64,000 nucleotides of DNA, from the IMG/VR virus record IMGVR_UViG_3300028840_006732. The stretch is one strand, 5' to 3'. The notes below the pieces were generated by a model. That model had not been told where the DNA came from and did not search any database. It worked only from the letters and a program-made list of their open reading frames with translations. A program made the position numbers and the translations under genes. Positions 18,839-54,708 of the stretch are shown here, in pieces. The DNA comes from a virus (Duplodnaviria > Heunggongvirae > Uroviricota > Caudoviricetes). Within the stretch, counting starts at the first letter, position 1. Each line of letters opens with the position of its first letter.

Positions 18839-18839
18839 A

Positions 18840-29587: not shown

Positions 29588-29677
29588 CATGGACTCCTTC
29601 CTACAGTAGCCTCCGGTCACGACCGCATCCGATCTAAGAAGTATATCCCTCATGGGGGACATCGTCAAGGGTGGAAA

Positions 29678-40998: not shown

Positions 40999-41385
40999 AT
41001 GGCGAAGGTCCCCTTGCTCGGCGGCCAGCACAAGGTCATCTACTTTGGGCCCCGCGACAATCAGAAACGCGACCGGTACTGGGCCGAGAACGGCCTGGTC
41101 CACCACGAAGACCGGGACACTGGAGAGTACGAGTCGCTGTCGGTCCGCGAGTTTCTGGAGCGGCTCAACGCCATCAACCAGATGATCAGGGGCGATCGTC
41201 AGGTCGGCAAGCAGATCGGCATCGACGTCGATCGGCAGCAGAAGTTTATCGAGGAGGGAGTCGCCCTGGCCCAGAAGGCACGGGAACAGGGGATGCCCAC
41301 CGACAAGGATGCCGTCAAGGACAGGCTCCGCCGGCGTAAGAAGACGGTGGTCATGCCCGGCTCCGGCTCCCAATACCAGTTGTAG
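40999..41385 (+). CDS. hypothetical protein
   Basis: AAGGAG 8 nt upstream. Confidence 0.6.
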   Translation: MAKVPLLGGQHKVIYFGPRDNQKRDRYWAENGLVHHEDRDTGEYESLSVREFLERLNAINQMIRGDRQVGKQIGIDVDRQQKFIEEGVALAQKAREQGMPTDKDAVKDRLRRRKKTVVMPGSGSQYQL

Positions 41386-41395
41386 CGAGGCAAGG

Positions 41396-41806
41396 ATGCT
41401 CAGCTCACGAGATGCGTTCAAGGTTGGTTTCCTCAGCCGTTGCGTGGAAGAGGGTCTGACTCTCGAAGAGGCCCACGAGCGCGTCAAGGAAGCCATGGAC
41501 AAGATGGGCGGGATCGTCGGGGACATCACCAGTATCCCCGTCAAGGCCCTGGAAGCCGGCAAGGCGGTCGCCGCACCGTTGCTGAGCTACGGGTTGCCTC
41601 TCGCCATCGCGGCCCCGCCAATCCTCGGCGGAGTCGCCGGCTACGGCCTGGCCAAAGCCACGGATGTCGATGACCAGGACCCCGAGGAAGTAAAGAAACA
41701 GGAGGTCGCCGACGAGTACCGACGCCAAACGGCACGTTTGCTGAGGCAGCGAGCCATGCGGGAGTACCGGGCTCGTCGCAAGCAAACAGGACGAGTGTTC
41801 CTGTAG
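41396..41806 (+). CDS. hypothetical protein with central TM helix
   Basis: Hydrophobic segment LLSYGLPLAIAAPPILGGVAGYGLA. Confidence 0.55.
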   Translation: MLSSRDAFKVGFLSRCVEEGLTLEEAHERVKEAMDKMGGIVGDITSIPVKALEAGKAVAAPLLSYGLPLAIAAPPILGGVAGYGLAKATDVDDQDPEEVKKQEVADEYRRQTARLLRQRAMREYRARRKQTGRVFL

Positions 41807-41815
41807 CGTGAACTT

Positions 41816-42229
41816 ATGGCAAACAGCCTGGTTAAGTTTGCAGCGAGGACGGAAGGGAATGGGCGCGGAAAGCTGTACTGGGGTCGGGCCGACGTCGACG
41901 GTCTGCCTTTCCGCGGCGCCAGCCCCCCGTTCTTCACGGAGGCGGAGTTCGACTCGCGGGTCGTCCGGGTGGCCGATCCGCAGAATGGTACGTTTCGTAC
42001 GTGGATCAAGGAGGAGAACAAGGCTTACCTCGACGTGCTCGACAAGATCCTCAACAACTGGGCACAGTTGCTCTTCGTCGAGCGTTGGAGGTCGAAGAAG
42101 CGGGGGCAGCATGTCGTCTACATCGAGTGGGCGGAATACTTCCTCGAAGACGGTCAGCCCGCACAGGCTGCGATAGGTCCAGGAGGGACAATCAGCTATG
42201 GACAGCAAAGTATCCCAGCGCATCATTGA
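41816..42229 (+). CDS. hypothetical protein
   Basis: ORF only. Position is consistent with translational coupling to the upstream gene. Confidence 0.5.
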   Translation: MANSLVKFAARTEGNGRGKLYWGRADVDGLPFRGASPPFFTEAEFDSRVVRVADPQNGTFRTWIKEENKAYLDVLDKILNNWAQLLFVERWRSKKRGQHVVYIEWAEYFLEDGQPAQAAIGPGGTISYGQQSIPAHH

Positions 42230-43040
42230 CGAGGTGCGCCAGGAAAAGGAGGCCACGGACCCGGTCGCCGTCCTTCAGGAAGCGGCCACCCGGAACCTCA
42301 AGACCCAGGCGTTGAAGGACCTGGGCCGCATCGCCGTCATCTCGGCCGGAGCCGGTGCGGGAGCCCGCGGTATCTACGGGCTGCTCAACCTTGTCCGGCG
42401 AAACGTCCGCACGCGAAAGCCGACTTACCCGGCCGTCTCACCTCTGCCGCTGCCCGTCCCCGCCAAGGAAGACGAGGAGGAAGAGCCCGAGCTGGCGAAG
42501 GCCGCTGGCTGGCTTGGCGACTTCTTCAAGGGCAACAAAGCCACCACGCCGATCGGCATCCCCTGGTACCAGCCGGCGGCGATGGTCGGCGGACTGGCGG
42601 CTGGAGGTCTCGGCTGGCACCTGGTCGACAAGATCCTCGACAAGCGCCGCAAGGAAGAGGTCGACTCCCAGGTGGAACGGGAGCGGGAGCGCTTCCGTGG
42701 GGCCCTGGTGGGCCAGTACGACGAGCCGGTCAAGATCAGCAGCGACGAGCCGATGGAGAAGCTGGCTGCCGACCTGGACGCCCTCTACGATCTCTGCATG
42801 GAGAAGCAAGCGCTCTTCAACCCGGACACGGCAGGGGCCACTCTGGGAACCTACGGGTACTACGCCGTGCCGGCCAGCTTGATGGCCGGCTGGTTTGCCT
42901 ACAGCGCAGCGCGCAAGCGACAGCGGAAGAACGTCCTCAAGAAGGCTCTTGAACGCCGCCGTCGTCGGGCGTACGCCACGCAGCCTGCGGAAATCCACGC
43001 CGTCCCGGTACCGGTGGACGTCGAAGAAGAGGCCGCTTGA
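42198..43040 (+). CDS. hypothetical protein with Gly-rich membrane-associated segments
   Basis: AGGAGGG upstream. Confidence 0.55.
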   Translation: MDSKVSQRIIDEVRQEKEATDPVAVLQEAATRNLKTQALKDLGRIAVISAGAGAGARGIYGLLNLVRRNVRTRKPTYPAVSPLPLPVPAKEDEEEEPELAKAAGWLGDFFKGNKATTPIGIPWYQPAAMVGGLAAGGLGWHLVDKILDKRRKEEVDSQVERERERFRGALVGQYDEPVKISSDEPMEKLAADLDALYDLCMEKQALFNPDTAGATLGTYGYYAVPASLMAGWFAYSAARKRQRKNVLKKALERRRRRAYATQPAEIHAVPVPVDVEEEAA

Positions 43041-43051
43041 GGTGAGACAGC

Positions 43052-46000
43052 ATGCCGCTCGATCTGAACCTGATGCCGCCGACGCCGTCCAATCTGCTGT
43101 CGGGGGCACCTGCACCTGTTGCCGCTCCACCTCCCACTGACGAGGAGACACGGGAGTTCGGAGACACTGACGCCACGCGCCGCAACATCTATGATCAGGT
43201 GCTGGTAGCGGCCCAGGGGATCGAGCCGGTCTCAAATCAGACCCACACCCTGCGGCTCAGCAAGGTGGACTGGCAGGACCCGGACACCTTCACCCTGCGC
43301 CAACAGAAGGAAGCCATCCTCGGCGGCCGAACTCTCGGCCGGCGATTGCGTGGTACCTGGGAACTCGTCGACAACGAGACCGGCGGCGTGCTGGATCGCC
43401 GTCGCCAGGTCGTGGCCACGGTCCCGCATCTGACGCCCCGGGGGACGTTCGTCCATAGGGGCAACGAGAATACGCTTCGCAACCAGCAGCGGCTGCGGGG
43501 CGGTGTCTTCACTCGTGTCCGTGAAAATGGAGAGATCGAAGCCCATGCGAACATCCTTCCTGGAAAAGGGGTGTCTCATCGCTACTTTCTTGATCCTGAG
43601 AAGGGCGTTTTCTACGTTCGGCTCCACAACGCCAAGCTCCCCCTCATGCCGCTTCTTAAAGCGATGGGAGCGACTCCCGCGGAGCTTCGCGAGATCTGGG
43701 GCGACGACCTGTATGCGGCCAACTATCCGAAGGATGAAGGTGCCGCCATCAAGAAGTACGCGGGACACGTGCTGACCCGCGCCGACCAGGAGGACGAGGA
43801 GCGGACGACGGCGCAGAAGCTCGTCGATCGTTGGACCTCGATGGAGCTGGACCCCGAGGTCACCGGGCGTACCCTGGGAAAACCGTACGATCGCATGAGC
43901 AAGGAGGCCATCCTTGACACGACTCGAAAGCTACTTGCTATTTCTCGCGACGAGGCTGATGTGGATGACCGTGATTCTCTGGCGTACCAGCATTTCCTGG
44001 GCCCGGAGGATCTTCTGGCGGAGAGGATTGCCAAGGACCACGGTCGGCTCCGCCGCCAGCTTCTCTGGAAGGCCGCCCGCAAGGGTAACCTCTCGGGCAT
44101 GCCTTCTTCAGCCCTACGGCCACAGGTCGAGTCTGCAATCTTGCACTCAGGTCTCGGACAGCCCCTGGAGGAAATCAACCCCGCCGAGATCTTCGACAAG
44201 CAATACTCCATCAGCCGGCTCGGAGAAGGAGGTATCCCCTCGCTAGATGCCGTGCCCGCGGAGGCCCGTAGCGTGCAACCCAGCCACTTCGGGTTCGTGG
44301 ACCCGCTACGCACGCCGGAGAGCTTTCGTGTGGGCGTGGACGTCTACATGACCCGCAACGCCCGCAAGGGGAAGAACGGCCGGATCTACACGCAGTTCAA
44401 GGACCCCCGTAGCGGCAAGCTGAAGTGGCTTTCTCCGCAGGATGTTGCCGACTCGGTGATCACCTTCCCCAGAGCGCTGGCCCGCCCCGGAAAGCGGGTG
44501 ATCGCCATGAAGGGCAGCAAGATGATCTGGGCCAAGAAGCGGGACGTCAACCTGGTGATGCCCAATTTCGAGGACGCCTTCTCCCCGCTGGGCAACCTGG
44601 TCCCCATGAAGGGCGCCGTCAAGGGGCAGCGGATGGCCATGGCCTCGCGGATGCTCACCCAGGCGCTGCCCCTGGTCGAGCCTGAGTCCCCCTGGGTCCA
44701 GTCGGCGATGCCCGGGACCCGTGGCGGCCGAAGCTACGAGGAGGAGTACGCCAAGCAGATGGGGGCGGTTCACGCCAAACGCGGCGGCCGGGTGCTGGGT
44801 ATCGACGACGACGGCATGAAGGTCCGCTACGACGACGGCAGCGAGGACAGCATCGAGCTGTACCACCATTTCCCTTTCAACCGGAAGACATACCTGCACC
44901 AGACACCCCTGGTCCGGCCCGGCCAGAGGTTTGCTCCTGGTGCCTTGCTGGCCCGCTCGAACTACACCGACGAGCGCGGCGCCACGGCCCTGGGCCGCAA
45001 CGCCCGGGTGGCCTACGTCTCCTGGCAGGGGAAAAACCACGAAGACGCCATCGTGATCTCCGAGGGTTTTGCCAAGAAGCTGGCCTCGGAGCACATGTAC
45101 CAGAATGAGCTGGAGGTCGACGACAGAACGAAGATCGGTAAGAAGACCTATGTCAGCCTGTTTCCGTCCCGATACGAGCGCAAGATCCTGGAGACGCTGG
45201 ACGACCGCGGAGTCGTCAAACCGGGAACCGAGGTCGAGAAGGGGCATCCGTTGATCTTGGCGGCACGCCAGCGGGAGCTGTCGCACAACAAGGTCCACAA
45301 GAGGAAGCAGGCGTCCCATGCAGATCATAGTATTGTCTGGGATCATAACGATCCCGGAATCGTTACCGACGTTGTTGACGGCAAGAAAGGGCCGGTGGTC
45401 CTCGTCAAGAGTACGTCTCCCATGCAAAAGGGAGACAAGCTCTCAGGACGATACGGAGACAAGGGCGTCATTTCCGCGATCATCCCCGACGCGCAGATGC
45501 CGCAGGGGCAGGACGGGAAGCCTTTCGAGGTGCTGCTGAATCCGCTGGGGATTATCGGCCGGACCAATCCGTCGCAAAAGATCGAGCTGTGGTTGGGCAA
45601 GTTGGCTGCCAAGCAGGGCAAGCCGATTCGGGTCGAGGATTGGGACGACAGCCGCGATTACGTGGATTGGGCCCGCGAGCAGCTCCGCAAGGCCGGATTG
45701 TCGGACACCGAGGACATCATCGACCCTAGCAACGACTCCAAGATCCGCGGCATCCCTACCGGTAATCGCTTCTTCATGAAGCTCCACCATCAAGCAGAAG
45801 CCAAGGAGCAGGGACGAGGCGGCGGCGCCTACACGGCCGAGGACGCCCCGGCCAAGGGCGGCAAGCAAGGTTCCAAGCGAGTCGCCCTGCTGGACACCAA
45901 CGCCCTGCTTAGCCATGGAGCGGTCCACAACCTGGAAGACGTGGGCGCCATTCGTGGTCAGCGGAACGAGGACTACTGGCTCCAGTTCATGATGGGGCAC

Positions 46001-47494
46001 AACCCGCCGATGCCTCGGGTGCCGATGGCCTACCATAAATTCGTCGAGCAACTCCGGGCCTCGGGGATCAACGTCGTCCGCGAGGGCACGCAGACGAACA
46101 TCATGGCGCTGACCGACAAGGACGTCGACGAGCTGGCCGGGGATCGCAACCTGATGAAGAACGACGGCGTCGATTGGGGCCGGGGCCTGCGTCCCATCCG
46201 GGGCGGTCTGTTCGACAAGAAGCTCACCGGCGGCCACTCCGGTCGGCGATGGTCTGCGATCCGCCTGACCGAGCCGATGCCCAATCCGGTGATGGAGGAG
46301 CCGATCCGTCGCGTGCTCGGGCTGACCAAGGCCAAGTTCGAGGCCGTCATCTCCGGGGACCATGAGCTGCCCAAGTTCGGCACCGGCGCCCAGGCCATCG
46401 GTAAAGCCTTGCAAGCCCTCAACTTGGACAAAGAGTTGTCCATGGCAAGGGCCCAAGTCTCGCAAGGCAGCAAGACGGAGAGGGACCAAGCTGTCCGCAA
46501 GCTCGACTATCTCAAGCGGGCCAAGAAGCTCGGTATCCATCCTGGCGACTGGGTGTTGAAGCGGGCCCCGGTGCTGCCGCCGGCGTTCCGCCCGGTCTCG
46601 ATGATGGACAACGACCTGCCGATGATCTCCGACGCCAACTACCTCTACAAGGAGCTGATGGAGGCCAACGATAACCTGGCGGCCATGAAGAAGGAGCTGG
46701 GGGACGAGGGTGCTGGCCCGGAGCGGCTGGCCGTCTACCACGCCTTCAAGGCAGTCACCGGCCTGGGAGATCCGATCAGCCAGAAGAGCCGCGAGAAGAA
46801 CGTGCGGGGAATCCTCAAAAGCGTTTTTGGAAGCTCTCCCAAGTTCGGCACCGTGCAGCGTAAGCTGATCTCCACGACAGTGGACAACGTCGGCCGGTCC
46901 GTGATCACCCCCAACCCCGATTTCGACATGGACACGGTGGGCCTGCCCGAGGATGCGGCCTTCGATATTTACGGAAAATTCATCGCCAGGCGTATGCGTC
47001 GACAGGGGGTTCCTCTGACCCGGGCCCTCCAGCAGATCAAGGATCGTACCCCCCTGGCCCGGGAAACGCTCGTCGAGGAAATGGACGAGCGGCCGGTGTT
47101 CATCAACCGCGCCCCCGTGCTGCACAAGTTTGGCATCCTCGCCTTCCGCCCCAAGCTGGTGAAGGGGAGCACGATGCAAGTGAGCCCCCTGATTGTCAAG
47201 GGGTTCAACGCCGACTTCGACGGCGACCAGATGAACTTCCACGTCCCCACGGACGCGGCGGCCGTCAAGGAGGCCTACGAGCGGATGCTGCCTTCGGCCA
47301 ACCTGCTCAGCCCGGCCGATTTCAAGTCCCCGGTGCATGCTCCCGGGCAGGAGTTCGTCGGCGGTCTCTACCACGCCACCAAGTCACGAAGCAAACAATC
47401 GGTGCGGAAGTTTCACACTTTGGCCGACGCCAGGGCGGCCTACGCAGCCGGCAAGCTGTCCCTGGACGACCAGGTACAGATTTTGGATCAGTAG
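43052..47494 (+). CDS. multisubunit RNA polymerase: beta-like subunit fused to the N-terminal (active-site) part of beta-prime
   Basis: Beta motifs: [26 protein letters not shown] parallels E. coli [41 protein letters not shown]...[15 protein letters not shown] parallels GDKLAGRHGNKGV...LNPLGVPSRMN. Beta-prime motifs: [13 protein letters not shown] and [15 protein letters not shown], the catalytic Asp triad at 47207-47236. The ORF ends shortly after region D. Confidence 0.8.
   Translation: [1480 protein letters not shown]
46813..46830. repeat. degenerate copy of the palindromic motif (CCTCAAAAGCGTTTTTGG) inside the RNAP gene, same reading frame as copies 3 and 4 (encodes LKSVFG)
   Basis: 13/18 identity to the consensus in reverse orientation. 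Confidence 0.35.
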
Positions 47495-47560
47495 CCATTC
47501 GGTATTCCGCACGGCACGGGCCTCGGATACACTGAGAAGACCTTGAAAGGGAGTTCGACT

Positions 47561-48298
47561 ATGTTCAAGTACGGAAGCGTGAACCCGGAATTGCTCGGTC
47601 TGGCCCGCGAGCGTGTCGCGGCGTTCGCCAAGCCGGAAGGTCAGGAAAAGCAGGGGATGATCCCCGGCGGGGAAGAGGCCATGGGTGGCGGCATGCCTCC
47701 CGGTGGCGATCCGATGGCTGCGGGTGGGATGCCTCCCGGCGGCGATCCGATGGCTGCGGGTGGGATGCCTCCCGGTGGCGCGCCCCCGGCTGATCCGATG
47801 GCGGGCGGCGGCGGCGCCATGCCGGACATGAACACCATGATCCAGCAGCAGGTCCAGGCCGCAATCCAGGGTATGGGCGGCGGTGCGGGAGGTCCGGGCG
47901 GGAATCCCCAAGGCGACTTGAAGCCGAAGATCGACCAGAACGTGGTCATGCTTCAGGTCCTCAAGATTCTGGCCAAGATCGCCGACGCGATGGGGATCAA
48001 CATCCCGGCCAGCGACATGGTCGTCACGCCGGAGGATCTCCAGCAGATGGCCCAGGGCGGCCCCGGTTACGCGGCCATGCAGTCGGATGATCCGGCTGCG
48101 GCTGGCGGAGGTGCCCCGGCCGGCGGTGGTGGCGGCATCAGTCCCATCGAGCCGATCCCCGCGGCCCAGGGTCCGGAGAAGCCGGCCCACGACCAGGGTG
48201 TGGCTGCCGACAAGGGCATCTTGCCTGATTTCGGCAGCATGGCAAACAAGGCCACCGCCATCGCGGCGGTTCTCGGCCGGCGAGCGGAAGCTGCATGA
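47561..48298 (+). CDS. Pro/Gly/Met-rich repeat protein (MPPGGDPMAAGG x3) with helical central region
   Basis: AAGGGAG 8 nt upstream. DNA tandem repeats at about 47689-47800. Confidence 0.6.
   Translation: MFKYGSVNPELLGLARERVAAFAKPEGQEKQGMIPGGEEAMGGGMPPGGDPMAAGGMPPGGDPMAAGGMPPGGAPPADPMAGGGGAMPDMNTMIQQQVQAAIQGMGGGAGGPGGNPQGDLKPKIDQNVVMLQVLKILAKIADAMGINIPASDMVVTPEDLQQMAQGGPGYAAMQSDDPAAAGGGAPAGGGGGISPIEPIPAAQGPEKPAHDQGVAADKGILPDFGSMANKATAIAAVLGRRAEAA
47689..47800 (+). repeat. about 2.5 tandem copies of a 36-bp coding repeat (gggatgcctcccggyggcgatccgatggctgcgggt)
   Basis: Read directly from the sequence. Confidence 0.6.
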
Positions 48299-48567
48299 AA
48301 CTGAAAATCATCTCCCAAGTTGGCGAACCTCCGTTGGTGATCGACGCCGCCATGGTCATCTGCGAGAACGCCGCTGGGACGCCCGTCATGGTGGCAGGAC
48401 ACTATGGACCCGAAGGAACGATTCGAGCATCACATGCGAAGGACGAGGACTTCAACGAGACACTGAGGAAGCTGGGCGTGGACATGGTGGTCTTCTGCGA
48501 CACCGTTCGTCTGCCGCCTCCGCCTCCCGGTGCCCGGTTGATCCGTGATCCTCGCAGCCCTCAGTGA
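48295..48567 (+). CDS. small hypothetical protein
   Basis: ATGA overlap with the upstream gene. Confidence 0.5.
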   Translation: MKLKIISQVGEPPLVIDAAMVICENAAGTPVMVAGHYGPEGTIRASHAKDEDFNETLRKLGVDMVVFCDTVRLPPPPPGARLIRDPRSPQ

Positions 48568-48579
48568 AGGAGAAGTCCC

Positions 48580-49500
48580 GTGGCAAAGAAGAAGCGACCG
48601 ACCAGGAGGCAACCCGTTAAGATCAACGAGGTCACCGACCCCAACACCATCCGCTCCGCCGACAAGCGCTACTACGCTTCGGGCCAGTCCTCGGTGATCC
48701 CCCGTACGATCGCCGACTCCACCCTGAAGAAGCCTCACCAGCTCAAGCCGATCCCCACACCCCCGGCTGTTGCTCCGGGTGGCGGCGGCCACGAAGGCAA
48801 CACGATCATCTCGGCCGACAAGTATTACAAGAGTCACGAAGCCCCGGCGCAGACGGTCACCGTGGCGCGGCAGACGGCCGAGGCGCCCGAATCGGCGGCC
48901 CACGGCGTCGGCCCTTTGGTCATCTCGCGGGCCGCTGACATCGACAATGTCATGTCGCGAGCCGTCGAGATGGTGGCGGCCGGCTACTCCCCCGTGCGAG
49001 TCGCCATCGGCAACAAGGGGTTGATCCCGCATATCCGCCAGAAGATCGAGTTCGCCGTCACTCGCGAGACGATCAGCGAGGATCAGGGCCGCGACATTCA
49101 GCTTGGCTTGACCCCGGAGGCGGCCGGCTACACGGAGGTCGAGGACGCCGTCCGCGGCGTGGAGCTTGGCGGGGGAGAGAAGCTCGCTGAGGATCTCACC
49201 GGCCCGCCGTCCACGGAGGAGCTTGCCGAGGTGCCGGAAGCCGGGGAGATCGACCCCAGCGGCGCCGACCTGGGCGATCCTGCCGCCTTCGTCTTCGGTG
49301 GTGATGAAGACGAGGAGGAAGAGATCGAAGAAGACGAGGAACCGGAAGAGGTCGTAGCCGACGACGAGCCGGGTGATCCCCTGGACGACCCCGAGCAGTT
49401 CGTGGTCGACGACGAAGAAGAAGACGAGGAGGAGGAACTCGACGATTTCATGAGCGAAGAGGAAGAAAATGATCCCGAAACTGGAGCTGGAGCACGTTGA
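48580..49500 (+). CDS. hypothetical protein with basic N-terminus (MAKKKRPTRRQP) and extremely acidic C-terminal tail (DEDEEEEIEEDEEPEE...DDEEEDEEEELDD)
   Basis: GTG start 7 nt after GAAGGAG. Confidence 0.6.
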   Translation: MAKKKRPTRRQPVKINEVTDPNTIRSADKRYYASGQSSVIPRTIADSTLKKPHQLKPIPTPPAVAPGGGGHEGNTIISADKYYKSHEAPAQTVTVARQTAEAPESAAHGVGPLVISRAADIDNVMSRAVEMVAAGYSPVRVAIGNKGLIPHIRQKIEFAVTRETISEDQGRDIQLGLTPEAAGYTEVEDAVRGVELGGGEKLAEDLTGPPSTEELAEVPEAGEIDPSGADLGDPAAFVFGGDEDEEEEIEEDEEPEEVVADDEPGDPLDDPEQFVVDDEEEDEEEELDDFMSEEEENDPETGAGAR

Positions 49501-49936
49501 AACAGAGTTGGCGCGGAAGTTCTCTGAGGAACCCGTCGTCATGGGGGCGCACCAGCTTAACGAGCTGGCCTGGGCTCGGAGGATCGCCTTTGCGTTGAAG
49601 GCGGAGTACGAGCATCGCCTGTGGGATGGAACACGAATCGACTTGCTCACCGAGACGGCGGCGGTGGAAATCGACTGGGCCCCGAAGTGGGCCGAAGCCA
49701 TCGGCCAGTGCCTCTGGTACTCGACGATGGTGCAGCTAGAACCCGTCGTCTTGCTCCTCGTTGAGGACATGGGTAAGGAATCGAAATACGTCTACCGGGC
49801 CTTGACGGTTTGCCACCAGATCGACATCGAAGTCTGGATCGCGGACACGAAGAAGGAGATTCTGACCGCCAATGGGAAACACTTCCCGATAGGACCCCCT
49901 GTAGCCGGAGCCTCTAACGATGGCACTGCCATTTAG
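49469..49936 (+). CDS. hypothetical protein, possibly PD-(D/E)xK nuclease-like (weak)
   Basis: GAGGAAG upstream. RIDLLTETAAVEIDWAPKW has a D...E.D..K spacing. Confidence 0.5.
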   Translation: MIPKLELEHVETELARKFSEEPVVMGAHQLNELAWARRIAFALKAEYEHRLWDGTRIDLLTETAAVEIDWAPKWAEAIGQCLWYSTMVQLEPVVLLLVEDMGKESKYVYRALTVCHQIDIEVWIADTKKEILTANGKHFPIGPPVAGASNDGTAI

Positions 49937-50210
49937 TTCAAACTACAAGCCGGACGGCACTGGACGCCGCCGGCGCACGCGGCCGATTGCCCGGTTCCAC
50001 GTGACCAACGACACTCATTTGGGCCGGCTCGTCCAGTCCATCGCCAAGAAGTTGCGGCTCGGCCTGCACGTTCGGATCAACGTGCCGGGCCAGGGCGACA
50101 TCTCCGGCGATGCAAGTCTGATTTGCGACCGGATCATCACGGGATTGTTGGCGCTGACCAACACGGGTTATCTGCGGCGCTATCATCTTGATCGCGTTCG
50201 TTACGAGTAA
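49920..50210 (+). CDS. small basic hypothetical protein
   Basis: ORF with high GC3. Confidence 0.45.
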   Translation: MALPFSSNYKPDGTGRRRRTRPIARFHVTNDTHLGRLVQSIAKKLRLGLHVRINVPGQGDISGDASLICDRIITGLLALTNTGYLRRYHLDRVRYE

Positions 50211-50255
50211 CCGGACATTTCCGGACACGTTGCCCGGGTAGAATGTCCGGTTTTT
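50211..50255 (+). terminator. putative terminator hairpin (CCGGACATT ... AATGTCCGG followed by TTTTT). CCGGACAY box repeated 3 times at 50211, 50221 and 50285.
   Basis: 9-bp inverted arms and T-run immediately after the stop at 50210. Third box copy at 50285-50292. Confidence 0.45.
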
Positions 50256-50323
50256 GTAGTTCCCACGGGAGAATCCGGCCACGATCCGGACATCTTCCGG
50301 CAGACCGATGAGGGAGGACTTCG

Positions 50324-50650
50324 ATGTCGAGACGAAAGTTTTGGCAGCTTATGCGCCTCCTTACTTGGCCATATCGTGCTCTGCGAGGCCGTTTGTGGCC
50401 CCGCAAACACGATGACCCCCAGCCCGAACTTCAGCGTTTGTACGCGAAGGCGGCCCGTCAGGGCGGCATGAAGATCGCGTACGACCGTTGGGGATATGCG
50501 TACGAGGTGAAGGGCGTGCAGTGCGTGGGCGTTGAGATCGACCAGACCAACGCTCCCAAGCCCCCGCACGATGACCCCTACATCCCCGGCAGCACTACCT
50601 GGCAGGGAGCCCGGCCGAGCAAGGATCTCGGCAAACTGAAGGTGGCGTAA
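50324..50650 (+). CDS. small hypothetical protein
   Basis: GAGGGAGG 7 nt upstream. Confidence 0.55.
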   Translation: MSRRKFWQLMRLLTWPYRALRGRLWPRKHDDPQPELQRLYAKAARQGGMKIAYDRWGYAYEVKGVQCVGVEIDQTNAPKPPHDDPYIPGSTTWQGARPSKDLGKLKVA

Positions 50651-50667
50651 GCCGCCTGGAGGCAAGG

Positions 50668-53600
50668 ATGCGAACGGCAACTCTGGGGCAGCATCTCGTC
50701 AACGAGACGCTGCCCGACGATATGCGCGACTACGACCGGGTCCTCGACAAGAAGGGGCTCTCCAGTCTGTTGCGCGAGGTCGCCGAGAAGCATCCCGACA
50801 AGTATCGGGAGATCTCCCACAAGCTGTTGGAGATTGGCAGCCGCGCGTCCCAGGAGTCCGGGGGCATGGCCTTCGGCGTCAAACACCTGGGCAAAGCCCG
50901 TGCCGCCGTCAAGACTCGCCAGAAGCTCACCAACGCCCTGGCGAAGATCCTTGACCGCGATGACCTGGACGACAGGAGACGGGAAGAGCTGATCGTGCGG
51001 GCCATCGGCCGGGAGATAGAACCCCAACAAGAGGCAATCCTCAAGGAGTCGCTGGAGGAGGGCAACCCGCTGGCCCTTCAGGTTCTGTCCGGTTCGCGCG
51101 GCAACAAGATGAACCTGGCAAGCCTCCGCGGCTCCGACATGCTTTACGTGGACCACCGGGGACGGCCGCTTCCCATCCCCATCCTTCGCAGCTACAGTGA
51201 AGGCTTGTCGCCGGAAGAATACTGGGCCGGCACCTACGGTGCCCGCCACGGCGTCATCGCCTTGAAGTCCGCCACCCGGGACGCCGGCTTCCTCAGCAAG
51301 CAGCTCAACCAGGTGGCTCACCGGCTGGTCGTCGTCGACGAGGACGAGGAGGAGGCACCCAAGGTCCTCCGCGGCATGCCCGTCGACACCAACGACATGG
51401 ATAACGAAGGAGCGCTGCTGGCCCATGACGCAGGACCCTACAAACGAAACACCCATCTCACCCCCAAGATCCTCAAGCACCTCCAACGAATGGGACATGA
51501 TCGAATCCTGGTCAGGTCTCCGATTATCGGAGGTTCGCCCGAAGGCGGCGTTTACTCGCGAGACGTGGGTGTACGTGAACGCGGTAACCTTCCGGGACTT
51601 GGTGAGATGGTTGGACTCACAGCCGCCCAGGCTCTCTCCGAGCCTCTGACCCAAGCGCAGATCTCGGCCAAGCACGGCGGAGGCGTGGCCGGGGAGGACA
51701 AGGCTGTCTCGGGGTTCGAGCGGATCAACCAGCTAGTCCAGACGCCACGGGTAATGAAAGGCGGCGCGGCACATGCCCAGGTCGATGGGACCGTGGGTCG
51801 CATCGAGAAAGCTCCCGCGGGTGGTAACTACGTCACCATCGACGGCGAGCAGCACTATGTGGGCCAGGGCTTCGACTTGAAAGTCAAGAAGGGTGATACG
51901 GTCGAAGCCGGGGACGTGCTTTCGGAGGGTCTCCCGAATCCGGGTCAGATCGTTCGACATAAAGGCGTTGGCGAGGGACGTCGTTACTTCACGTGGGCTT
52001 TCCGCCAGGCTTTGCAGGATGCAGGGCTCAAGGCTCACCGGAGAAACACCGAGCTGCTCAGTAGGGGGCTTATCAACCATGTCAGACTCACCGAGGAATA
52101 CGAAGACGGAGTTCCGGGTGACGTCATTCCGTATTCAACGCTCGAACACCGGTACACGCCTCGTGAGGACTACGAGGATGTCGAACCTCGGAGGGCGGTT
52201 GGCCAGTACCTTGAACGCCCTGTCCTCCATTATACGATCGGCACGAAGGTCCGGCCCTCGATGCTCCGGGAGTTCGAGCGATTCGGAGTGAACACGCTCA
52301 GTGTACACAAGAACCCGCCGCCTTTCGAGCCGGAGATGATTCGTGGCATGTACTCCATGCAGCACGACCCCGACTGGCTGGTCCGGCATTACGGCTCCGG
52401 CTTGAAGAAGAGCTTGCTCAGCGCGGCCCAGCGAGGCGGCACCAGCGAGGAGCGGGGCAGCTCCTTTGTCCCCGCCCTGGCCCGCTCGACCAATTTCGGC
52501 CGCACGCCGAACAGCGTCGTCCGCAAGCCTGGCCCCGGATTCGAGCCACCCCGGCCGAGCCTGGCCAGTGAGCAGACCGAGCAGCGTAAGCCGAAGCCGG
52601 TACGCAAGAGCTGGTTCGGTGGCCGGTTCAAACTCTCCTCGGACGCCGAGCTGGAGAAAATCGCCTCGCTTCCTGCTCCGTACAAGAAACCGACTTCGAC
52701 TCCCCCCGGCACCTCGGGCGGAGTCCAGGGAGCCGCCGAGCGTTCTGCGCAGGGGGTCGGTCCGAGTCCCTCTGCGCAGATGGGTACAACTGTACCTTCG
52801 GCGGGTACAGGCGGAAATCCGTATGCCGCAGGAGCAGCCGCTGCGGGAGGTGCTGGCGGTGTTGAGCAAGTCGGCTCCATGCCGGCGGCTCGGCCGCAGT
52901 GGGGTTCCTACGCAAGCCCGGGGATGATGGGCAGCCCGCTGGCTGTGCCGCTGATTCAACAGGTCAACAAGATGCTTCCCGGCGTGGGTGGCGTGATGAC
53001 CATGGGAACGCTGATGTCGCCGCAGTCCATGCGGGTCTTGACCAGCGGCCAACGATACTCCCCACTCTCCGGTACCGGCGGCTGGCAGGGAGCAGGCGGC
53101 AGCGGCATCCCGCCAGCCGGCTACCAGATTGACCAGCAACAGCCGACCCCCGAAGCTGCCCCTGAAGTCCAGCAGCCGGCTGCTCCTGCCGCGGACCCCC
53201 AGGCGGCCATGGACCAGCGGATCGAGCAGGGCGTTGACAACGCCTTCGATACGATCCTTGGAACCAAGCCCGGCACGGGTGTCTTCAGTGACGAAGCCCC
53301 CACGAACCTGCGAGATGCCTTGCCCGAGAGTGTGAGGAACTACACGCCTGACTGGGCCGAGGACATGTTCCTCCGTTTCATGCCCAACCCGGCCAACCCG
53401 TCGCGGGAGCTGGGCCAGGCGGCCATGATCCGTCAGGGCCTGGCCCCGATCGGTCGCGGACTGAGCACGCTCTGGCGGGCTCCAGTGAAGGGGACTGGCT
53501 ACTTGCCGTGGCTCCGCAACACGCGGGCCGGTGAGTGGCTGCGGAACATGAAGTTCATGTCTCCCAAGGGCGGACCGGGGATGCTTACCCGACTGATGAA

Positions 53601-54708
53601 TCGCATCCCCGGGGCCAGCAAGCTGTGGGGCGCCGCCAAGGGTGCCAAGCCGGGCGTAGGGCCGCTGGGCCATCTGGCGATCGCCCTGGACGCGATTGGT
53701 ACCGGCAGGAATGTTGTTCAGCATGGTCTTACCGGCCACGGTAGCGCTGGCGAGCAAGTCAACCAGCGTCGGCAGTCGCAGATCGAAGGAGCCGCCGCAG
53801 GGAATCCCCTGGACGCTGTGGGTTTCGCTGGAGAGTTTTTCAGCCCCTTCAGTACGGGGGCTGCGGGCGCAGAGACTGTCGCGGGTACCACCGAGGCGAC
53901 GATCCGCGGTGCCCAGGAAGCCGGCCGGAGTTACGGTTTGGGTTCGCAGCAACAGGAACTCTATCAGCGCCGCTCGGCCGAGGGCCTCGATCCCAGCAAC
54001 CCGATCAACCAGCGGGACTACCAGTTGCACAACGACAAGTCGATCCTCGATCCGCTGTCGCGGGTGTGGAGCCGGGTCAAGGAACGCCACGGTTACGGGA
54101 AAGACGGCACGCTCTGGGATAAGGCCAAAGGGATGGTCCTTCCGTACGCCGGGATCGCCCAGGGCATGATGGACATCCAGGACGTCATCAAGGAGCCGGC
54201 CGAGGCTGGAATGGAAGCCCTCCAGGAGTATAGCTCGCTGAAGGGCAAGGCCCAGCCGATCTTGCAGGAGCGGGCCGAGACCGCTCAGAGCCAGAAAGCA
54301 GCCCTCCCCGAGCAGATCCGCGAGTTGGAGAAGATCGAGGCTGCCGGCGGTCTGACGCCCGGGCAGAAGCAGTCTTTGGAAAAGCTCCGCCAGCGACAGG
54401 AGATGTCCGGCTACGAGCTGTCCCACGAGGGTATGGGGGCTGGTGAACGGATTATGGAGGATGTTCACCTGAAGCGTCCGGGTGTCCCAGGTGTGGAGCC
54501 GATCCACCTCCCCGGAGCCGGCTGGGGCCTCAAACGCTTTGCCACGCCGGCGGAAATCTGGCGTGGTGAGGTCTCCTTCAACCCCTTCTTCAAGCGAGGT
54601 CTCGACGAGATGGGCGGGGCGCCGCTGGTCGGCGGATTTCCCATCCTCTTCGAGGAGGAGCCTTTTGCTATTGGCGAGGCCGCGCAAAATGGGCTAGAAT
54701 CGGCCTAG
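50668..54708 (+). CDS. multisubunit RNA polymerase beta-prime C-terminal part (bridge helix / trigger-loop regions) with about 750-aa low-complexity C-terminal extension
   Basis: GARHGVIALKSATRDAGFLSKQLNQVAHRLVVVDED parallels the beta-prime bridge helix [20 protein letters not shown]. GGAGG 5 nt upstream. The C-terminal half is G/A/P/Q-rich with no recognisable domain. Confidence 0.75.
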   Translation: MRTATLGQHLVNETLPDDMRDYDRVLDKKGLSSLLREVAEKHPDKYREISHKLLEIGSRASQESGGMAFGVKHLGKARAAVKTRQKLTNALAKILDRDDLDDRRREELIVRAIGREIEPQQEAILKESLEEGNPLALQVLSGSRGNKMNLASLRGSDMLYVDHRGRPLPIPILRSYSEGLSPEEYWAGTYGARHGVIALKSATRDAGFLSKQLNQVAHRLVVVDEDEEEAPKVLRGMPVDTNDMDNEGALLAHDAGPYKRNTHLTPKILKHLQRMGHDRILVRSPIIGGSPEGGVYSRDVGVRERGNLPGLGEMVGLTAAQALSEPLTQAQISAKHGGGVAGEDKAVSGFERINQLVQTPRVMKGGAAHAQVDGTVGRIEKAPAGGNYVTIDGEQHYVGQGFDLKVKKGDTVEAGDVLSEGLPNPGQIVRHKGVGEGRRYFTWAFRQALQDAGLKAHRRNTELLSRGLINHVRLTEEYEDGVPGDVIPYSTLEHRYTPREDYEDVEPRRAVGQYLERPVLHYTIGTKVRPSMLREFERFGVNTLSVHKNPPPFEPEMIRGMYSMQHDPDWLVRHYGSGLKKSLLSAAQRGGTSEERGSSFVPALARSTNFGRTPNSVVRKPGPGFEPPRPSLASEQTEQRKPKPVRKSWFGGRFKLSSDAELEKIASLPAPYKKPTSTPPGTSGGVQGAAERSAQGVGPSPSAQMGTTVPSAGTGGNPYAAGAAAAGGAGGVEQVGSMPAARPQWGSYASPGMMGSPLAVPLIQQVNKMLPGVGGVMTMGTLMSPQSMRVLTSGQRYSPLSGTGGWQGAGGSGIPPAGYQIDQQQPTPEAAPEVQQPAAPAADPQAAMDQRIEQGVDNAFDTILGTKPGTGVFSDEAPTNLRDALPESVRNYTPDWAEDMFLRFMPNPANPSRELGQAAMIRQGLAPIGRGLSTLWRAPVKGTGYLPWLRNTRAGEWLRNMKFMSPKGGPGMLTRLMNRIPGASKLWGAAKGAKPGVGPLGHLAIALDAIGTGRNVVQHGLTGHGSAGEQVNQRRQSQIEGAAAGNPLDAVGFAGEFFSPFSTGAAGAETVAGTTEATIRGAQEAGRSYGLGSQQQELYQRRSAEGLDPSNPINQRDYQLHNDKSILDPLSRVWSRVKERHGYGKDGTLWDKAKGMVLPYAGIAQGMMDIQDVIKEPAEAGMEALQEYSSLKGKAQPILQERAETAQSQKAALPEQIRELEKIEAAGGLTPGQKQSLEKLRQRQEMSGYELSHEGMGAGERIMEDVHLKRPGVPGVEPIHLPGAGWGLKRFATPAEIWRGEVSFNPFFKRGLDEMGGAPLVGGFPILFEEEPFAIGEAAQNGLESA

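What the first reader, a model, noticed from the sequence alone, without database searches (positions are those of the whole stretch)
43052..54708. Divergent multisubunit RNA polymerase with unusual split: beta fused to beta-prime N-terminus, and a separate beta-prime C-terminus carrying a ~750-aa tail
The 1480-aa product of 43052..47494 carries beta signatures (PSHFGFVDPLRTPE; GDKLSGRYGDKGVIS...LNPLGIIGRTN). In the same polypeptide it also carries beta-prime signatures (VLPPAFRPV; NADFDGDQMNFHVP) and stops after region D. The bridge-helix region (GARHGVIALKSATRDAGFLSKQL) lies in a separate 1346-aa ORF, 50668..54708, five small genes downstream. The beta-prime split point resembles the cyanobacterial rpoC1/rpoC2 split. 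The beta-beta-prime fusion resembles the Helicobacter rpoBC fusion. I know of no described system with both arrangements at once. The beta-prime N-terminal Zn-finger cysteines appear to be missing. The long disordered extension on the C-terminal subunit, sitting next to putative structural genes, suggests a virion-packaged or otherwise specialised polymerase.
Basis: partly seen in the sequence, partly recalled or inferred. Interest (0 to 1): 0.85.

Follow-up and report, generated by a model that had tools for sequence, protein, structure and literature searches.

The report
Fused-subunit RNA polymerase of a phage
A large uncultivated bacteriophage encodes its own bacterial-type RNA polymerase as two proteins (subunit beta joined to the front half of beta-prime, and the back half of beta-prime carrying a long, mostly floppy tail), an arrangement shared by hundreds of environmental phages and a few cultured ones that I found described in no paper I could search.

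Summary
ORF 43052-47494 (1480 aa) is a complete RNA polymerase beta fused head-to-tail to beta-prime residues about 20-560 (E. coli numbering). ORF 50668-54708 (1346 aa) holds the rest of beta-prime in aa 1-620, followed by a tail of about 725 aa. Two independent assemblies agree, so this is not a frameshift artefact.

The arrangement is not unique. More than 100 metagenomic homologues at 56-71% identity share it. So do Salmonella phage Arash (gp206/gp216) and Vibrio phages D69, D148 and D181. In Arash both proteins are among the most abundant proteins detected in purified virions. I found no paper that describes the fusion-plus-split architecture, and the published mReC phage-polymerase clade has unfused subunits.

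New points:
- The whole family lacks the beta-prime N-terminal zinc ribbon.
- This subclade has also lost the second zinc site, leaving no cysteine in 2826 residues.
- The tail is hypervariable, nearly orphan and mostly predicted disordered, and it ends in a small folded domain.
- Relatives show three other split and fusion patterns.
- The genes sit at the head of a virion structural module syntenic with Arash.

The most likely reading is a virion-packaged, host-independent phage polymerase. Packaging and the role of the tail are inferred, not shown.

The parts
43052..47494 (+). Gene for the 1480-aa beta / beta-prime-N fusion polypeptide (0 cysteines)
   Evidence: ORF. Pfam hits PF00562, PF04565, PF00623 and PF04997. 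PDB beta and beta-prime hits fall in one chain. The identical protein P0001 is present in JGI and ENA assemblies.
43052..46084 (+). Beta module (aa 1-1011). It contains fork/Rif-pocket region aa 365-394, the flap with a shortened tip at aa 737-753, and the catalytic-lysine motif GDKLSGRYGDKG at aa 794-805. Lineage insertions SI1 and SI2 are absent.
   Evidence: phmmer against Salmonella RpoB aligns up to residue 1340 of 1342.
46094..47491 (+). Beta-prime N-terminal module (aa ~1015-1480). It corresponds to E. coli beta-prime ~20-560 and includes the clamp helices, lid/rudder region and the double-psi barrel with NADFDGD (aa 1386-1392).
   Evidence: MAFFT alignment with Salmonella RpoC, Arash, D69 and Rhizobium phage Y65. 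PDB alignments. TIGR02386 profile positions 147-534.
46232..46243 (+). Site of the excised zinc ribbon. 'GHSG' stands where E. coli beta-prime has about 35 residues containing C70/C72/C85/C88.
   Evidence: Alignment. The flanking N-terminal motif RGLRPIRGGLFDKKLTG matches Thermus beta-prime residues 35-51.
47543..50650 (+). Six small orphan ORFs between the two polymerase genes (251/233, 90, 306, 155, 96 and 108 aa). One is Gly/Met/Pro-rich with a 36-bp tandem repeat, and one has a poly-acidic tail.
   Evidence: Gene calls, sequences. No Pfam or PHROG hit. The repeat at 47693-47780 is polymorphic between assemblies.
50668..52527 (+). Beta-prime C-terminal module (aa 1-620 of the 1346-aa ORF). 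It contains the bridge helix (aa 191-213), a trigger loop without the SI3 insertion (aa 323-362), and the former second zinc site with all four Cys replaced (aa 221-231 and 282-303).
   Evidence: Pfam PF04998. PDB beta-prime residues 661-1170 at 2e-35. MAFFT alignment. TIGR02386 positions 549-1050.
52528..54705 (+). Non-polymerase tail, about 725 aa (aa 621-1346). It has a Gly/Ala/Pro/Ser-rich region predicted disordered up to about aa 1000, helices at aa 1000-1110, and a C-terminal helical/small-beta domain at aa 1180-1315.
   Evidence: AF2 model and composition. Only 6 relatives among 1.84 billion representatives. The C-terminal domain is present in 15 of 123 homologues. No fold match to the tail. 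In-frame GC3 is 0.71-0.79.
55675..58326 (+). Conserved 883-aa neighbour, homologous to the Arash virion protein gp218 and syntenic with the beta-prime-C gene across the family.
40999..43040 (+). Four small ORFs directly upstream of the fusion gene, conserved in that position in the closest relatives. ORFs 41396-41806 and 42198-43040 have hydrophobic segments.
   Evidence: Synteny with L006, L010 and L011. Sequences. No family hits.

Best explanation
The two ORFs together encode the complete catalytic core of a phage-encoded, bacterial-type multisubunit RNA polymerase.

Polypeptide 1 is a full beta subunit joined without a linker to the N-terminal about 45% of beta-prime. That part of beta-prime holds the clamp helices, lid/rudder and the Mg-binding NADFDGD barrel. 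Polypeptide 2 supplies the remainder of beta-prime: bridge helix, trigger loop and C-terminal clamp/jaw.

Shown: identity, boundaries, intact catalytic motifs and conservation of the arrangement.

The enzyme belongs to a widespread family carried by large tailed phages of about 175-236 kb. Cultured members are Salmonella phage Arash and Vibrio phages D69, D148 and D181. The family as a whole has deleted the beta-prime zinc ribbon and avoids cysteine. This subclade has also lost the second zinc site, shortened the flap tip, and appended a hypervariable tail to the second polypeptide.

Inferred mechanism:
- The covalent beta/beta-prime-N tether replaces the alpha-dimer assembly platform. No alpha or omega gene is seen nearby.
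- The polymerase is packaged in the capsid and delivered with the DNA, so that phage genes are transcribed without host polymerase. This follows from the Arash virion proteome and from the position of the genes at the head of the virion-structural module.
- It is probably insensitive to rifampicin, because pocket residues D516, H526 and R529 are substituted.
- The tail is not part of the catalytic machine. It most likely serves packaging or ejection, or carries accessory or host-directed functions, as do the non-catalytic extensions of other virion polymerases.
For: Identity and boundaries.

Catalytic elements intact: both beta lysines, NADFDGD, the bridge helix and the trigger-loop His.

Conservation:
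- 1064 fusion relatives and 759 beta-prime-C relatives were detected.
- Among the listed top 120 fusion hits, those without inteins are about 1450-1516 aa long and carry both beta and beta-prime Pfam domains.
- IMG/VR phage contigs up to 224 kb carry the same genes.

Cultured relatives with the same arrangement: Arash gp206 (1525 aa, 31% identity over aa 63-1477) plus gp216 (606 aa), and D69_0261 plus D69_0264.

Virion evidence in Arash (PMC10585845): gp206 has the most spectra of any protein, 3516 against 1333 for the major capsid protein. gp216 has 1210 spectra, and the sigma factor gp10 is also found in particles.

Synteny with the Arash structural module on the same contig: gp218 (3e-12), gp222 (2e-28) and the major capsid protein (1.5e-34) follow the beta-prime-C gene in the same order.

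Cysteine avoidance fits an extracellular or ejected protein:
- 0 Cys in 2826 aa, against 1.3% in the window proteome.
- 96 of 120 fusion homologues and 95 of 120 beta-prime-C homologues also have 0 Cys.
- In other lineages the four second-zinc-site ligands are essentially the only Cys in the enzyme.

Other points:
- No alpha, omega or sigma family hit among the ORFs scanned.
- Rif-pocket substitutions.
- Tail properties. One homologue's tail carries the polyvalent-protein domain InPase.
- Arash and D69 each contain only one polymerase set (one place per record).
Against: - Packaging is not shown for this phage. The Arash preparation also contained 116 of 252 proteins, including ribonucleotide reductases and ligases, and its authors themselves allow carry-over of abundant intracellular proteins.
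- Arash is only about 31% identical, lacks the tail and keeps the second zinc site, so the extrapolation is long.
- No sigma factor, portal or protease was identified in the 64-kb window or the 8.7 kb beyond it that I could read.
- Only about a third of the genome was visible.
- The role of the tail has no direct evidence. It has no fold or family match.
- The neighbouring 883-aa protein gave no informative fold match either.
- Loss of both zinc sites could in principle mean impaired function, although strong conservation argues otherwise.
Confidence: 0.6

Rival explanations
1. It is the same enzyme, but it is not virion-packaged. It would be made after infection and transcribe middle or late genes, with host polymerase reading the early genes. 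The tail would then serve an intracellular role, such as localisation, interaction with replication or packaging machinery, or regulation.
For: - The Arash authors note that abundant enzymes may simply contaminate particles.
- The genes lie in what would classically be a late (structural) operon.
- No direct packaging signal or protease site was identified.
Against: - Arash gp206 gave more spectra than the major capsid protein.
- Arash and D69 carry only one polymerase set.
- Family-wide cysteine avoidance and loss of zinc sites are hard to explain for a purely cytoplasmic enzyme.
- Neighbouring orphans have the composition of internal or ejected virion proteins.
Confidence: 0.25
2. The tail is a polyvalent-protein-like cargo: a rapidly exchanging module delivered into the host together with the polymerase for counter-defence or host takeover. 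It would not be a packaging or ejection device.
For: - Tails of 84 homologues range from 34 to 1097 aa, and their C-terminal 250 aa fall into 14 unrelated clusters.
- The window's C-terminal domain occurs in only 15 of 123 homologues and has 6 relatives in 1.84 billion representatives.
- Homologue P0219 carries the InPase domain in its tail. PHROG families holding that domain include DarB-like antirestriction proteins and minor head proteins.
Against: - No recognisable enzymatic or effector domain is present in this window's tail.
- About half of the tail is low-complexity, predicted-disordered sequence.
- This rival is compatible with, rather than exclusive of, the best explanation.
Confidence: 0.3
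3. It is an artefact or decay product: canonical rpoB and rpoC broken by frameshifts or misassembly, or a pseudogenised copy. The tail would be out-of-frame read-through.
For: Metagenomic origin, and an unusual ORF structure.
Against: - Two independent assemblies are 99.96-99.97% identical with identical polymerase ORFs.
- More than 100 homologues at 56-71% identity keep the same ORF boundaries.
- Cultured phages share the arrangement.
- Six genes separate the two ORFs.
- Catalytic motifs are intact.
- The coding GC3 signature persists through the tail.
Confidence: 0.01
4. It is a cellular polymerase: the contig would be part of an unusual bacterium or a plasmid rather than a phage.
For: - 63% GC.
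- A large island of sugar-biosynthesis and methyltransferase genes occupies the first 25 kb of the window.
- No hallmark phage Pfam hit lies inside the window.
Against: - Identity to any bacterial polymerase is only about 28-31%, and all NCBIfam equivalog cut-offs are missed by a wide margin.
- No alpha subunit or ribosomal-protein neighbourhood is present.
- Relatives are IMG/VR viral contigs of 150-224 kb.
- A homologue of the Arash major capsid protein (1.5e-34) and of virion proteins gp218 and gp222 lie just downstream.
- A TerL homologue lies next to the polymerase gene in L009.
Confidence: 0.02

Closest known systems
Salmonella phage Arash gp206 + gp216 (OQ632216; PMC10585845) and Vibrio phages D69, D148 and D181
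   Same: - Beta fused to beta-prime-N in one ORF of about 1525 aa, with a separate beta-prime-C ORF.
- The same split point and the same excision of the N-terminal zinc ribbon.
- Extreme cysteine poverty.
- Single polymerase set per genome.
- Location beside virion genes (gp218, gp222 and capsid-protein homologues in the same order).
Sources.
   Different: - Only 29-31% identical.
- Their beta-prime-C is 606-609 aa with no tail.
- They keep the four cysteines of the second zinc site.
- The flap-tip deletion is 3 aa rather than 8 aa.
- The intervening genes differ.
- In GenBank they are annotated simply as 'RNA polymerase subunit beta' or as hypothetical proteins. The Arash paper calls gp216 the beta' subunit. 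Neither source comments on the fusion.
Helicobacter/Wolbachia-type RpoBC fusion (NCBIfam NF007172, NF011417)
   Same: Head-to-tail covalent joining of the beta C-terminus to the beta-prime N-terminus. These models are the best NCBIfam hits by E-value (1e-99 and 7e-86).
   Different: - The cellular fusions contain the whole beta-prime (about 2890 aa), keep both zinc sites, and work with alpha, omega and sigma.
- Here the fusion stops after the active-site barrel.
- The score is 334 bits against a cut-off of 5372.
Cyanobacterial/chloroplast rpoC1 (gamma) / rpoC2 split
   Same: Beta-prime is divided after the double-psi barrel. The fusion aligns to gamma residues 179-552 (TIGR02387).
   Different: - The phage break lies about 15-65 residues upstream of the cyanobacterial one. 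Gamma continues to residue 619-624.
- Beta is not fused in cyanobacteria.
- Cyanobacterial beta-prime carries a large trigger-loop insertion that is absent here.
- Cut-offs are missed: 178 against 976 bits for rpoC1, and 68 against 467 bits for rpoC2.
phiKZ/AR9-type jumbo-phage virion and non-virion multisubunit polymerases (Sokolova et al. 2020, PMC7598289)
   Same: - Phage-encoded multisubunit polymerase.
- Beta-prime is split after the barrel, at the cyanobacterial-like site.
- No alpha or omega.
- One version is packaged in virions.
   Different: - Those enzymes are extremely divergent, and their beta is split into two or three pieces, never fused to beta-prime.
- The present enzyme is far closer to bacterial polymerases (1e-70 to PDB beta). 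It hits phiKZ-like PHROGs only weakly and locally.
mReC, multisubunit-RNAP-encoding Caudovirales (Weinheimer & Aylward 2020, PMC7481178)
   Same: Bacterial-like but deep-branching polymerase genes on large uncultivated tailed-phage contigs from diverse metagenomes.
   Different: - All listed mReC rows that I read have beta (about 1000-1520 aa) and beta-prime (about 900-1390 aa) as different proteins.
- Their selection filter required two hits of at least 800 aa, with NADxDGD in the beta-prime hit. By my reading that would exclude the fusion type.
- The phylogenetic relation was not tested.
Virion polymerases with large non-catalytic extensions: N4 vRNAP, crAss-like gp66, P23-45 tape-measure-fused RNAP (PMC10770324)
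   Same: The concept of a polymerase that travels in the particle and carries long extra regions tied to packaging or ejection (N4 from general knowledge).
   Different: - N4 vRNAP is a single-subunit polymerase, and the crAss-like and P23-45 enzymes are highly divergent single-polypeptide homologues of cellular polymerases. None shares this two-polypeptide architecture.
- The tail has no sequence or fold similarity to any of them.

Membership tests
Bacterial-type multisubunit RNA polymerase catalytic core (beta + beta-prime) | Beta double-psi barrel with the two catalytic lysines, and the Rpb2_6 domain | tested here: met
   PF00562 at 2e-47. GDKLSGRYGDKG at aa 794-805 aligns to E. coli GDKMAGRHGNKG.
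Bacterial-type multisubunit RNA polymerase catalytic core (beta + beta-prime) | Beta-prime NADFDGD Mg-binding motif, bridge helix, and trigger loop with its conserved His | tested here: met
   NADFDGD at aa 1386-1392. Bridge helix at aa 191-213 and trigger loop at aa 323-362 of ORF2, with ...AKHGGG.
Bacterial-type multisubunit RNA polymerase catalytic core (beta + beta-prime) | Two zinc sites in beta-prime: the N-terminal ribbon (C70/72/85/88) and the second site (C814/888/895/898) | tested here: not met
   The ribbon is replaced by GHSG, and all second-site ligands are substituted. Both polypeptides contain 0 Cys.
Bacterial-type multisubunit RNA polymerase catalytic core (beta + beta-prime) | Reaches the curated equivalog scores for rpoB and rpoC | tested here: not met
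   TIGR02013 scores 257 against 801 bits. TIGR02386 scores 216 and 175 against 963 bits. The proteins are homologues, not orthologues, of the cellular genes.
Bacterial-type multisubunit RNA polymerase catalytic core (beta + beta-prime) | Partner subunits alpha, omega and sigma encoded or used | tested here: inconclusive
   No alpha, omega or sigma family hit among ORFs of the window and 8.7 kb beyond. About two thirds of the genome was not visible. Use of host subunits cannot be tested in silico.
Arash-like phage polymerase family (beta/beta-prime-N fusion + beta-prime-C) | One ORF containing full beta plus beta-prime up to the end of the active-site barrel, and a second ORF starting at about E. 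coli beta-prime residue 588 | tested here: met
   Colinear alignments with gp206/gp216 and D69_0261/0264.
Arash-like phage polymerase family (beta/beta-prime-N fusion + beta-prime-C) | Precise deletion of the beta-prime zinc ribbon, and cysteine poverty | tested here: met
Arash-like phage polymerase family (beta/beta-prime-N fusion + beta-prime-C) | Synteny with the virion module (gp218-like, gp222-like and major capsid protein downstream) | tested here: met
   phmmer gives 3e-12, 2e-28 and 1.5e-34, in the same order.
Arash-like phage polymerase family (beta/beta-prime-N fusion + beta-prime-C) | Presence of both polypeptides in virions | not testable with these tools
   Known only for Arash, by mass spectrometry.
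mReC clade (Weinheimer & Aylward 2020) | Separate beta and beta-prime ORFs, each at least 800 aa, with NADxDGD in the beta-prime ORF | tested here: not met
   Here NADFDGD lies in the same ORF as beta, and the other beta-prime ORF lacks it.
mReC clade (Weinheimer & Aylward 2020) | Placement inside the mReC branch of a concatenated beta/beta-prime tree | not tested
The metagenome ids of my related loci did not occur in their supplement.
Cyanobacterial rpoC1/rpoC2 split | Break at the gamma/beta-prime boundary, and the trigger-loop insertion in rpoC2 | tested here: not met
   The break is about 15-65 residues upstream (the fusion ends at gamma profile position 552 of 619). There is no trigger-loop insertion. 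Scores are far below the cut-offs.
Helicobacter-type RpoBC | A single polypeptide with complete beta and complete beta-prime | tested here: not met
   The fusion stops at rpoC profile position 534 of 1147. Some relatives (L009, L012, L015; 2078-2531 aa) do contain all three modules in one ORF.
phiKZ/AR9-type jumbo-phage polymerases | Beta split into two or three polypeptides, and very divergent sequences | tested here: not met
   Beta is intact and fused here. Only weak local matches to the phiKZ-like PHROGs 3295, 2987 and 3148.

The most novel reading that the evidence does not exclude
A self-sufficient multisubunit RNA polymerase made of only two polypeptides, with no alpha or omega and with no zinc and no cysteine at all. 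It would be packed in the capsid and threaded through the tail into the host. The beta/beta-prime-N tether would substitute for the assembly platform, and the hypervariable, largely disordered tail would act as the packaging, ejection or host-engagement device. This would be the simplest known cellular-type polymerase core and a new route of polymerase delivery.
Probability: 0.3. Interest if true: 0.8.

Novelty: new variant of a known kind. Interest (0 to 1): 0.6.

Why it matters
Multisubunit RNA polymerases are thought to need an alpha-type assembly platform and structural zinc. This family suggests that a covalent beta/beta-prime-N tether can do without the first. In this subclade, both zinc sites and every cysteine also appear dispensable.

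The family shows four interchangeable architectures: fused plus split, further split, fully fused, and tailed. That makes it a natural experiment on where the enzyme can be cut and joined.

It is abundant in metagenomes and has cultured members (Arash and the Vibrio phages), so biochemistry and cryo-EM are feasible now.

If the enzyme is virion-delivered, these phages are transcriptionally independent of the host from the first minute. That bears on host takeover, on rifampicin-insensitive infection, and on defence systems that sense polymerase.

The family also appears to fall outside the filter that defined the only published clade of bacterial-like phage polymerases (mReC), so current surveys probably undercount such enzymes.

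Tried and rejected
- **Sigma factor.** I searched the window and the readable flank with Arash gp10 and D69_0246 as queries and found nothing. The translation of the annotated Arash gp196 'sigma' CDS looked non-protein-like, so I did not rely on it.
- **Promoter motif.** A k-mer enrichment search in putative intergenic regions found nothing convincing, and many of the 'intergenic' stretches probably hold uncalled genes.
- **Fold search for the tail.** Foldseek of the beta-prime-C 401-1346 model against the PDB matched only the polymerase core, with nothing for the tail.
- **Homology search for the tail.** An exhaustive phmmer search of tail aa 860-1346 found only 6 relatives.
- **Failed alignment.** The first tail alignment (A1) mis-registered the low-complexity start against the polymerase core and was discarded. 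A2, anchored on 220 core residues, was used instead.
- **Link to mReC.** Matching metagenome ids gave no overlap. Loci L019-L045 from the IMG/VR scan turned out to be giant-virus Rpb1-like or phiKZ-like genes, not mReC.
- **Walking the contig.** This was blocked. Only window-encoded proteins can be looked up, and two look-ups failed because of start-codon differences.
- **Family searches on neighbours.** PHROG and Pfam searches of all neighbouring small ORFs gave no hits.
- **Literature.** Searches for any description of a phage beta/beta-prime fusion found none.

Full report
**What is in the sequence**

The window is 63% GC, and almost all of its genes are on the + strand.

ORF 43052-47494 translates to 1480 aa and ORF 50668-54708 to 1346 aa.

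Profile and structure-database searches leave no doubt about homology:
- ORF1 matches Pfam Rpb2_6 (2e-47), Rpb2_3 and Rpb1_2 (9.5e-26), and faintly Rpb1_1.
- Within the same chain, ORF1 matches solved bacterial beta subunits (3e-70) over aa ~50-1030 and beta-prime/gamma subunits (4e-50) over aa ~1100-1477.
- ORF2 aa 4-493 matches beta-prime residues 661-1170 of Streptomyces polymerase (2e-35). The match includes the bridge helix and a trigger loop without insertion.

**Exact anatomy**

- The beta part runs to the very end of RpoB. Fusion aa 1011 aligns to Salmonella RpoB 1340 of 1342.
- Beta-prime begins about four residues later. Its N-terminal motif RGLRPIRGGLFDKKLTG aligns to Thermus RTLKPERDGLFDERIFG. 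The junction is therefore a direct head-to-tail fusion.
- The zinc ribbon that follows in cellular beta-prime (CxC...CxxC, about 35 residues) is replaced by 'GHSG'.
- ORF1 ends at rpoC profile position 534 and ORF2 begins at position 549. This corresponds to E. coli residues about 560 and 588, a clean cut after the active-site barrel.
- The cut lies some 15-65 residues upstream of the cyanobacterial gamma/beta-prime boundary. The gamma profile continues to position 619, while the fusion ends at 552.
- The polymerase part of ORF2 ends near aa 620, exactly where Arash gp216 ends. The remaining about 725 aa form the tail.
- Lineage-specific insertions of E. coli (beta SI1 and SI2, beta-prime SI3) are absent.
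- Three of the rifampicin-pocket residues are changed: D516E, H526K and R529S.
- The flap tip has an 8-aa deletion.
- The basic face of the clamp helices is not conserved. Taken with the flap-tip deletion, I read this as a hint of non-canonical initiation-factor contacts, no more than that.

**Not an artefact**

- The identical proteins occur in JGI and ENA assemblies.
- The ENA contig is 99.96-99.97% identical to the window over 24.5 kb. It differs only by one unit of a 36-bp tandem repeat inside the neighbouring ORF 47543-48298.
- Six called genes separate the two polymerase ORFs.
- The in-frame GC3 signature continues through the tail.

**How common it is**

The fusion protein has 1064 detected relatives. 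Among the best 120 (56-71% identity), those without inteins are about 1450-1516 aa long and carry both beta and beta-prime Pfam domains. Longer ones carry intein and homing-endonuclease domains. They sit on contigs of up to 236 kb.

In the cultured-phage collection, four records cover at least 80% of the query: Salmonella phage Arash and Vibrio phages D69, D148 and D181.
- Arash gp206 (1525 aa) is the fusion and gp216 (606 aa) is the C-terminal part of beta-prime.
- The genes are flanked by the portal gene and by many proteins shown by mass spectrometry to be structural.
- D69 has the same pair, annotated as hypothetical.

At the level of literature I found nothing:
- The Arash paper simply calls the proteins beta and beta-prime.
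- Reviews of phage multisubunit polymerases do not mention such a fusion.
- Targeted searches for it returned nothing.

**Relation to mReC**

Weinheimer and Aylward (2020) described a clade of phages with bacterial-like polymerases. Their supplementary table lists beta and beta-prime as different proteins in every row I read. Their filter required two hits of at least 800 aa, with NADxDGD in the beta-prime hit. In my reading, the fusion architecture would fail that filter. I could not obtain mReC sequences to test the phylogenetic relation.

**Architectural plasticity**

Related IMG/VR loci show four layouts:
- (A) Fusion plus a short beta-prime-C: L006, L010 (both with inteins), L016, L017, Arash, D69.
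- (B) Fusion plus a tailed beta-prime-C: this window and L011.
- (C) A separate N-terminal beta of about 500 aa, plus a beta-C/beta-prime-N fusion of about 1030 aa, with a separate beta-prime-C seen in L007 and L008: L007, L008, L014, L018.
- (D) All modules in one polypeptide of 2078-2531 aa: L009, L012, L015.

**Zinc and cysteine**

Both polypeptides of the window contain no cysteine at all. The window's predicted proteome averages 1.3% Cys, so about 37 would be expected in 2826 residues.

Of the 120 closest homologues of each protein, 96 (fusion) and 95 (beta-prime-C) also have none. The exceptions are mainly intein-bearing proteins.

No member of the wider family has the N-terminal ribbon. 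Arash, D69, L007, L008, L009, L012, L015, L016 and L017 keep the second zinc site (C...Cx6-7CxxC). In several of these the four ligands are the only cysteines in the whole enzyme, for example the 2078-aa L009 protein. The window subclade has replaced these ligands too.

Such systematic avoidance is what one expects of a protein exposed outside the cytoplasm, or one that has to unfold and refold without cofactors. I take it as indirect support for packaging and ejection.

**The tail**

- Composition is Gly/Ala/Pro/Ser/Thr/Gln-rich up to about aa 850, and there are no transmembrane-like segments.
- An AF2 model of aa 401-1346 with a 23-sequence alignment gives a confident polymerase core (aa 423-558, pLDDT 62-94). 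It gives pLDDT below 50 for aa 559-1000, helices of moderate confidence at aa 1000-1110, and a confident helical plus small-beta domain at aa 1180-1315.
- Foldseek finds no match for any tail element.
- An exhaustive search of 1.84 billion representative proteins with aa 860-1346 finds six relatives.
- The C-terminal domain sits at the extreme C-terminus of only 15 of 123 homologues.
- Across 84 homologues the tails are 34-1097 aa long (median 582) and 0.0% Cys. Among the 76 tails of at least 100 aa, the last 250 residues fall into 14 unrelated clusters.
- One homologue carries the InPase pyrophosphatase domain in its tail.
- Members of the family outside this subclade have no tail.

The tail is thus a subclade-specific, fast-evolving appendage rather than part of the enzyme.

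**Context**

- Upstream lie ribonucleotide reductase, thioredoxin and methyltransferases. Further upstream is a 25-kb island of sugar-nucleotide, glycosyltransferase and methyltransferase genes.
- The four ORFs directly upstream of the fusion gene, and the ORF directly downstream of it, are conserved in position in the closest relatives.
- The ORFs around the polymerase genes are orphans. They have Gly/Met/Pro-rich repeats, poly-acidic tails or hydrophobic segments.
- Downstream of the beta-prime-C gene, the same contig encodes homologues of Arash gp218 (3e-12), gp222 (2e-28) and the major capsid protein (1.5e-34), in the same order as in Arash. The polymerase genes therefore open the virion-structural module in both phages.
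- No alpha, omega or sigma homologue was found in what I could read. Only about a third of the genome was visible.

**Interpretation**

Shown:
- A complete, apparently functional catalytic core in two polypeptides.
- Membership of a widespread phage family with cultured representatives.
- Loss of zinc sites and of cysteines.
- A hypervariable tail.
- Synteny with structural genes.

Inferred:
- Virion packaging and delivery. This rests on the Arash proteome, where gp206 had the highest spectral count of all proteins and gp216 and a sigma factor were also detected. It also rests on cysteine avoidance and on gene position.
- The tether acting as a substitute for the alpha platform.
- Rifampicin insensitivity.
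- A packaging, ejection or cargo role for the tail.

The main caveat is that the Arash preparation contained 116 proteins, including cytoplasmic enzymes, and its authors allow for carry-over.

**Verdict**

This is a real and well-conserved feature, correctly read by the first stage, but it is not unique. It is a new variant within the known kind 'phage-encoded multisubunit RNA polymerase'. It belongs to an essentially uncharacterised family that is experimentally tractable through Arash and the Vibrio phages. Interest is moderate to high (0.6). What would raise it is proof that a zinc-free, cysteine-free, two-polypeptide core is active and is delivered from the virion.

Noticed in passing
window 43052-47494 and 50668-54708; also 47543-48298, 48580-49500, 54730-55647: There is no cysteine in either polymerase polypeptide (2826 aa) or in several neighbouring orphan ORFs. 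Enzymes elsewhere in the window have normal cysteine content; for example, the ribonucleotide reductase has 22 Cys in 776 aa. The pattern is conserved in about 80% of close homologues. In more distant relatives the four second-zinc-site ligands are essentially the only cysteines in the enzyme.
   Followed up: yes
window 29228-31159; L014 4128-6545; protein P0219: A 643-aa ORF carries the InPase pyrophosphatase domain (PF18823, 1.6e-49), which is known from injected 'polyvalent' phage proteins. In relatives the same domain is physically joined to the polymerase: it is inserted in the separate N-terminal beta ORF of L014 and sits in the tail of the beta-prime-C homologue P0219. The Arash virion proteome also lists a pyrophosphatase. 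This suggests a pyrophosphatase working with the phage polymerase.
   Followed up: partly
window 47693-47780 (inside ORF 47543-48298): A 36-bp tandem repeat (2.4 copies, encoding GGMPPGGDPMAA units) differs by exactly one copy between the window and the otherwise 99.96-99.97% identical ENA contig k141_31792.
   Followed up: yes
L007, L008, L014, L018; L009, L012, L015 (IMG/VR relatives): The same polymerase family occurs in other layouts. In some loci, beta is split at about aa 480 into a separate protein of about 500 aa plus a beta-C/beta-prime-N fusion. In others, all modules are in one polypeptide of 2078-2531 aa.
   Followed up: partly
homologues P0005, P0077, P0093, P0095, P0118, P0122, P0125, P0236; loci L006, L010, L013: Many homologues of both polymerase genes are interrupted by inteins or homing endonucleases (Pfam PF14528, PF14890, PF03161, PF05203), which lengthen the ORFs to 1800-2770 aa. 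The window's genes are intein-free.
   Followed up: no
window 1-25000: A large island of sugar-nucleotide and glycan genes: dTDP-sugar epimerase (4000-4551), GT1 (5228-6355), GT2 (6342-7169 and 21566-22429), DegT aminotransferase (10180-11355), hexapeptide acyltransferase (13784-14497), a GDP-mannose-dehydratase-like gene (18760-19968), and several methyltransferases. This is unusual cargo for a phage, and its target (DNA, virion or host surface) is unknown.
   Followed up: no
window 20192-20268: ARAGORN reports one tRNA-like gene with an undetermined anticodon.
   Followed up: no
window 54730-55647 and 47543-48298, 48580-49500: The orphan proteins flanking the polymerase genes have striking low-complexity composition. 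Examples are YGGGW repeats, 19 Met in 251 aa, and a 60-residue poly-Asp/Glu tail. This is reminiscent of internal or ejected virion proteins, and it resembles the composition of the start of the beta-prime-C tail.
   Followed up: partly
L046 7425-8105 (Arash gp7): Arash structural protein gp7 (226 aa) shows weak phmmer similarity (1e-7 to 5e-4) to the beta-prime-C proteins of Arash, D69, L015, L016 and L017. It may be a paralogous fragment.
   Followed up: no
L001 5456-6493 (Arash gp196): The CDS annotated as an RpoS-like sigma factor translates to a low-complexity, non-protein-like sequence in the annotated frame. It may be mis-annotated, and I did not use it.
   Followed up: no
window 31697-32332: An SPFH/Band-7 domain protein (PF01145, 8e-13) is encoded between the InPase gene and the ribonucleotide reductase.
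   Followed up: no
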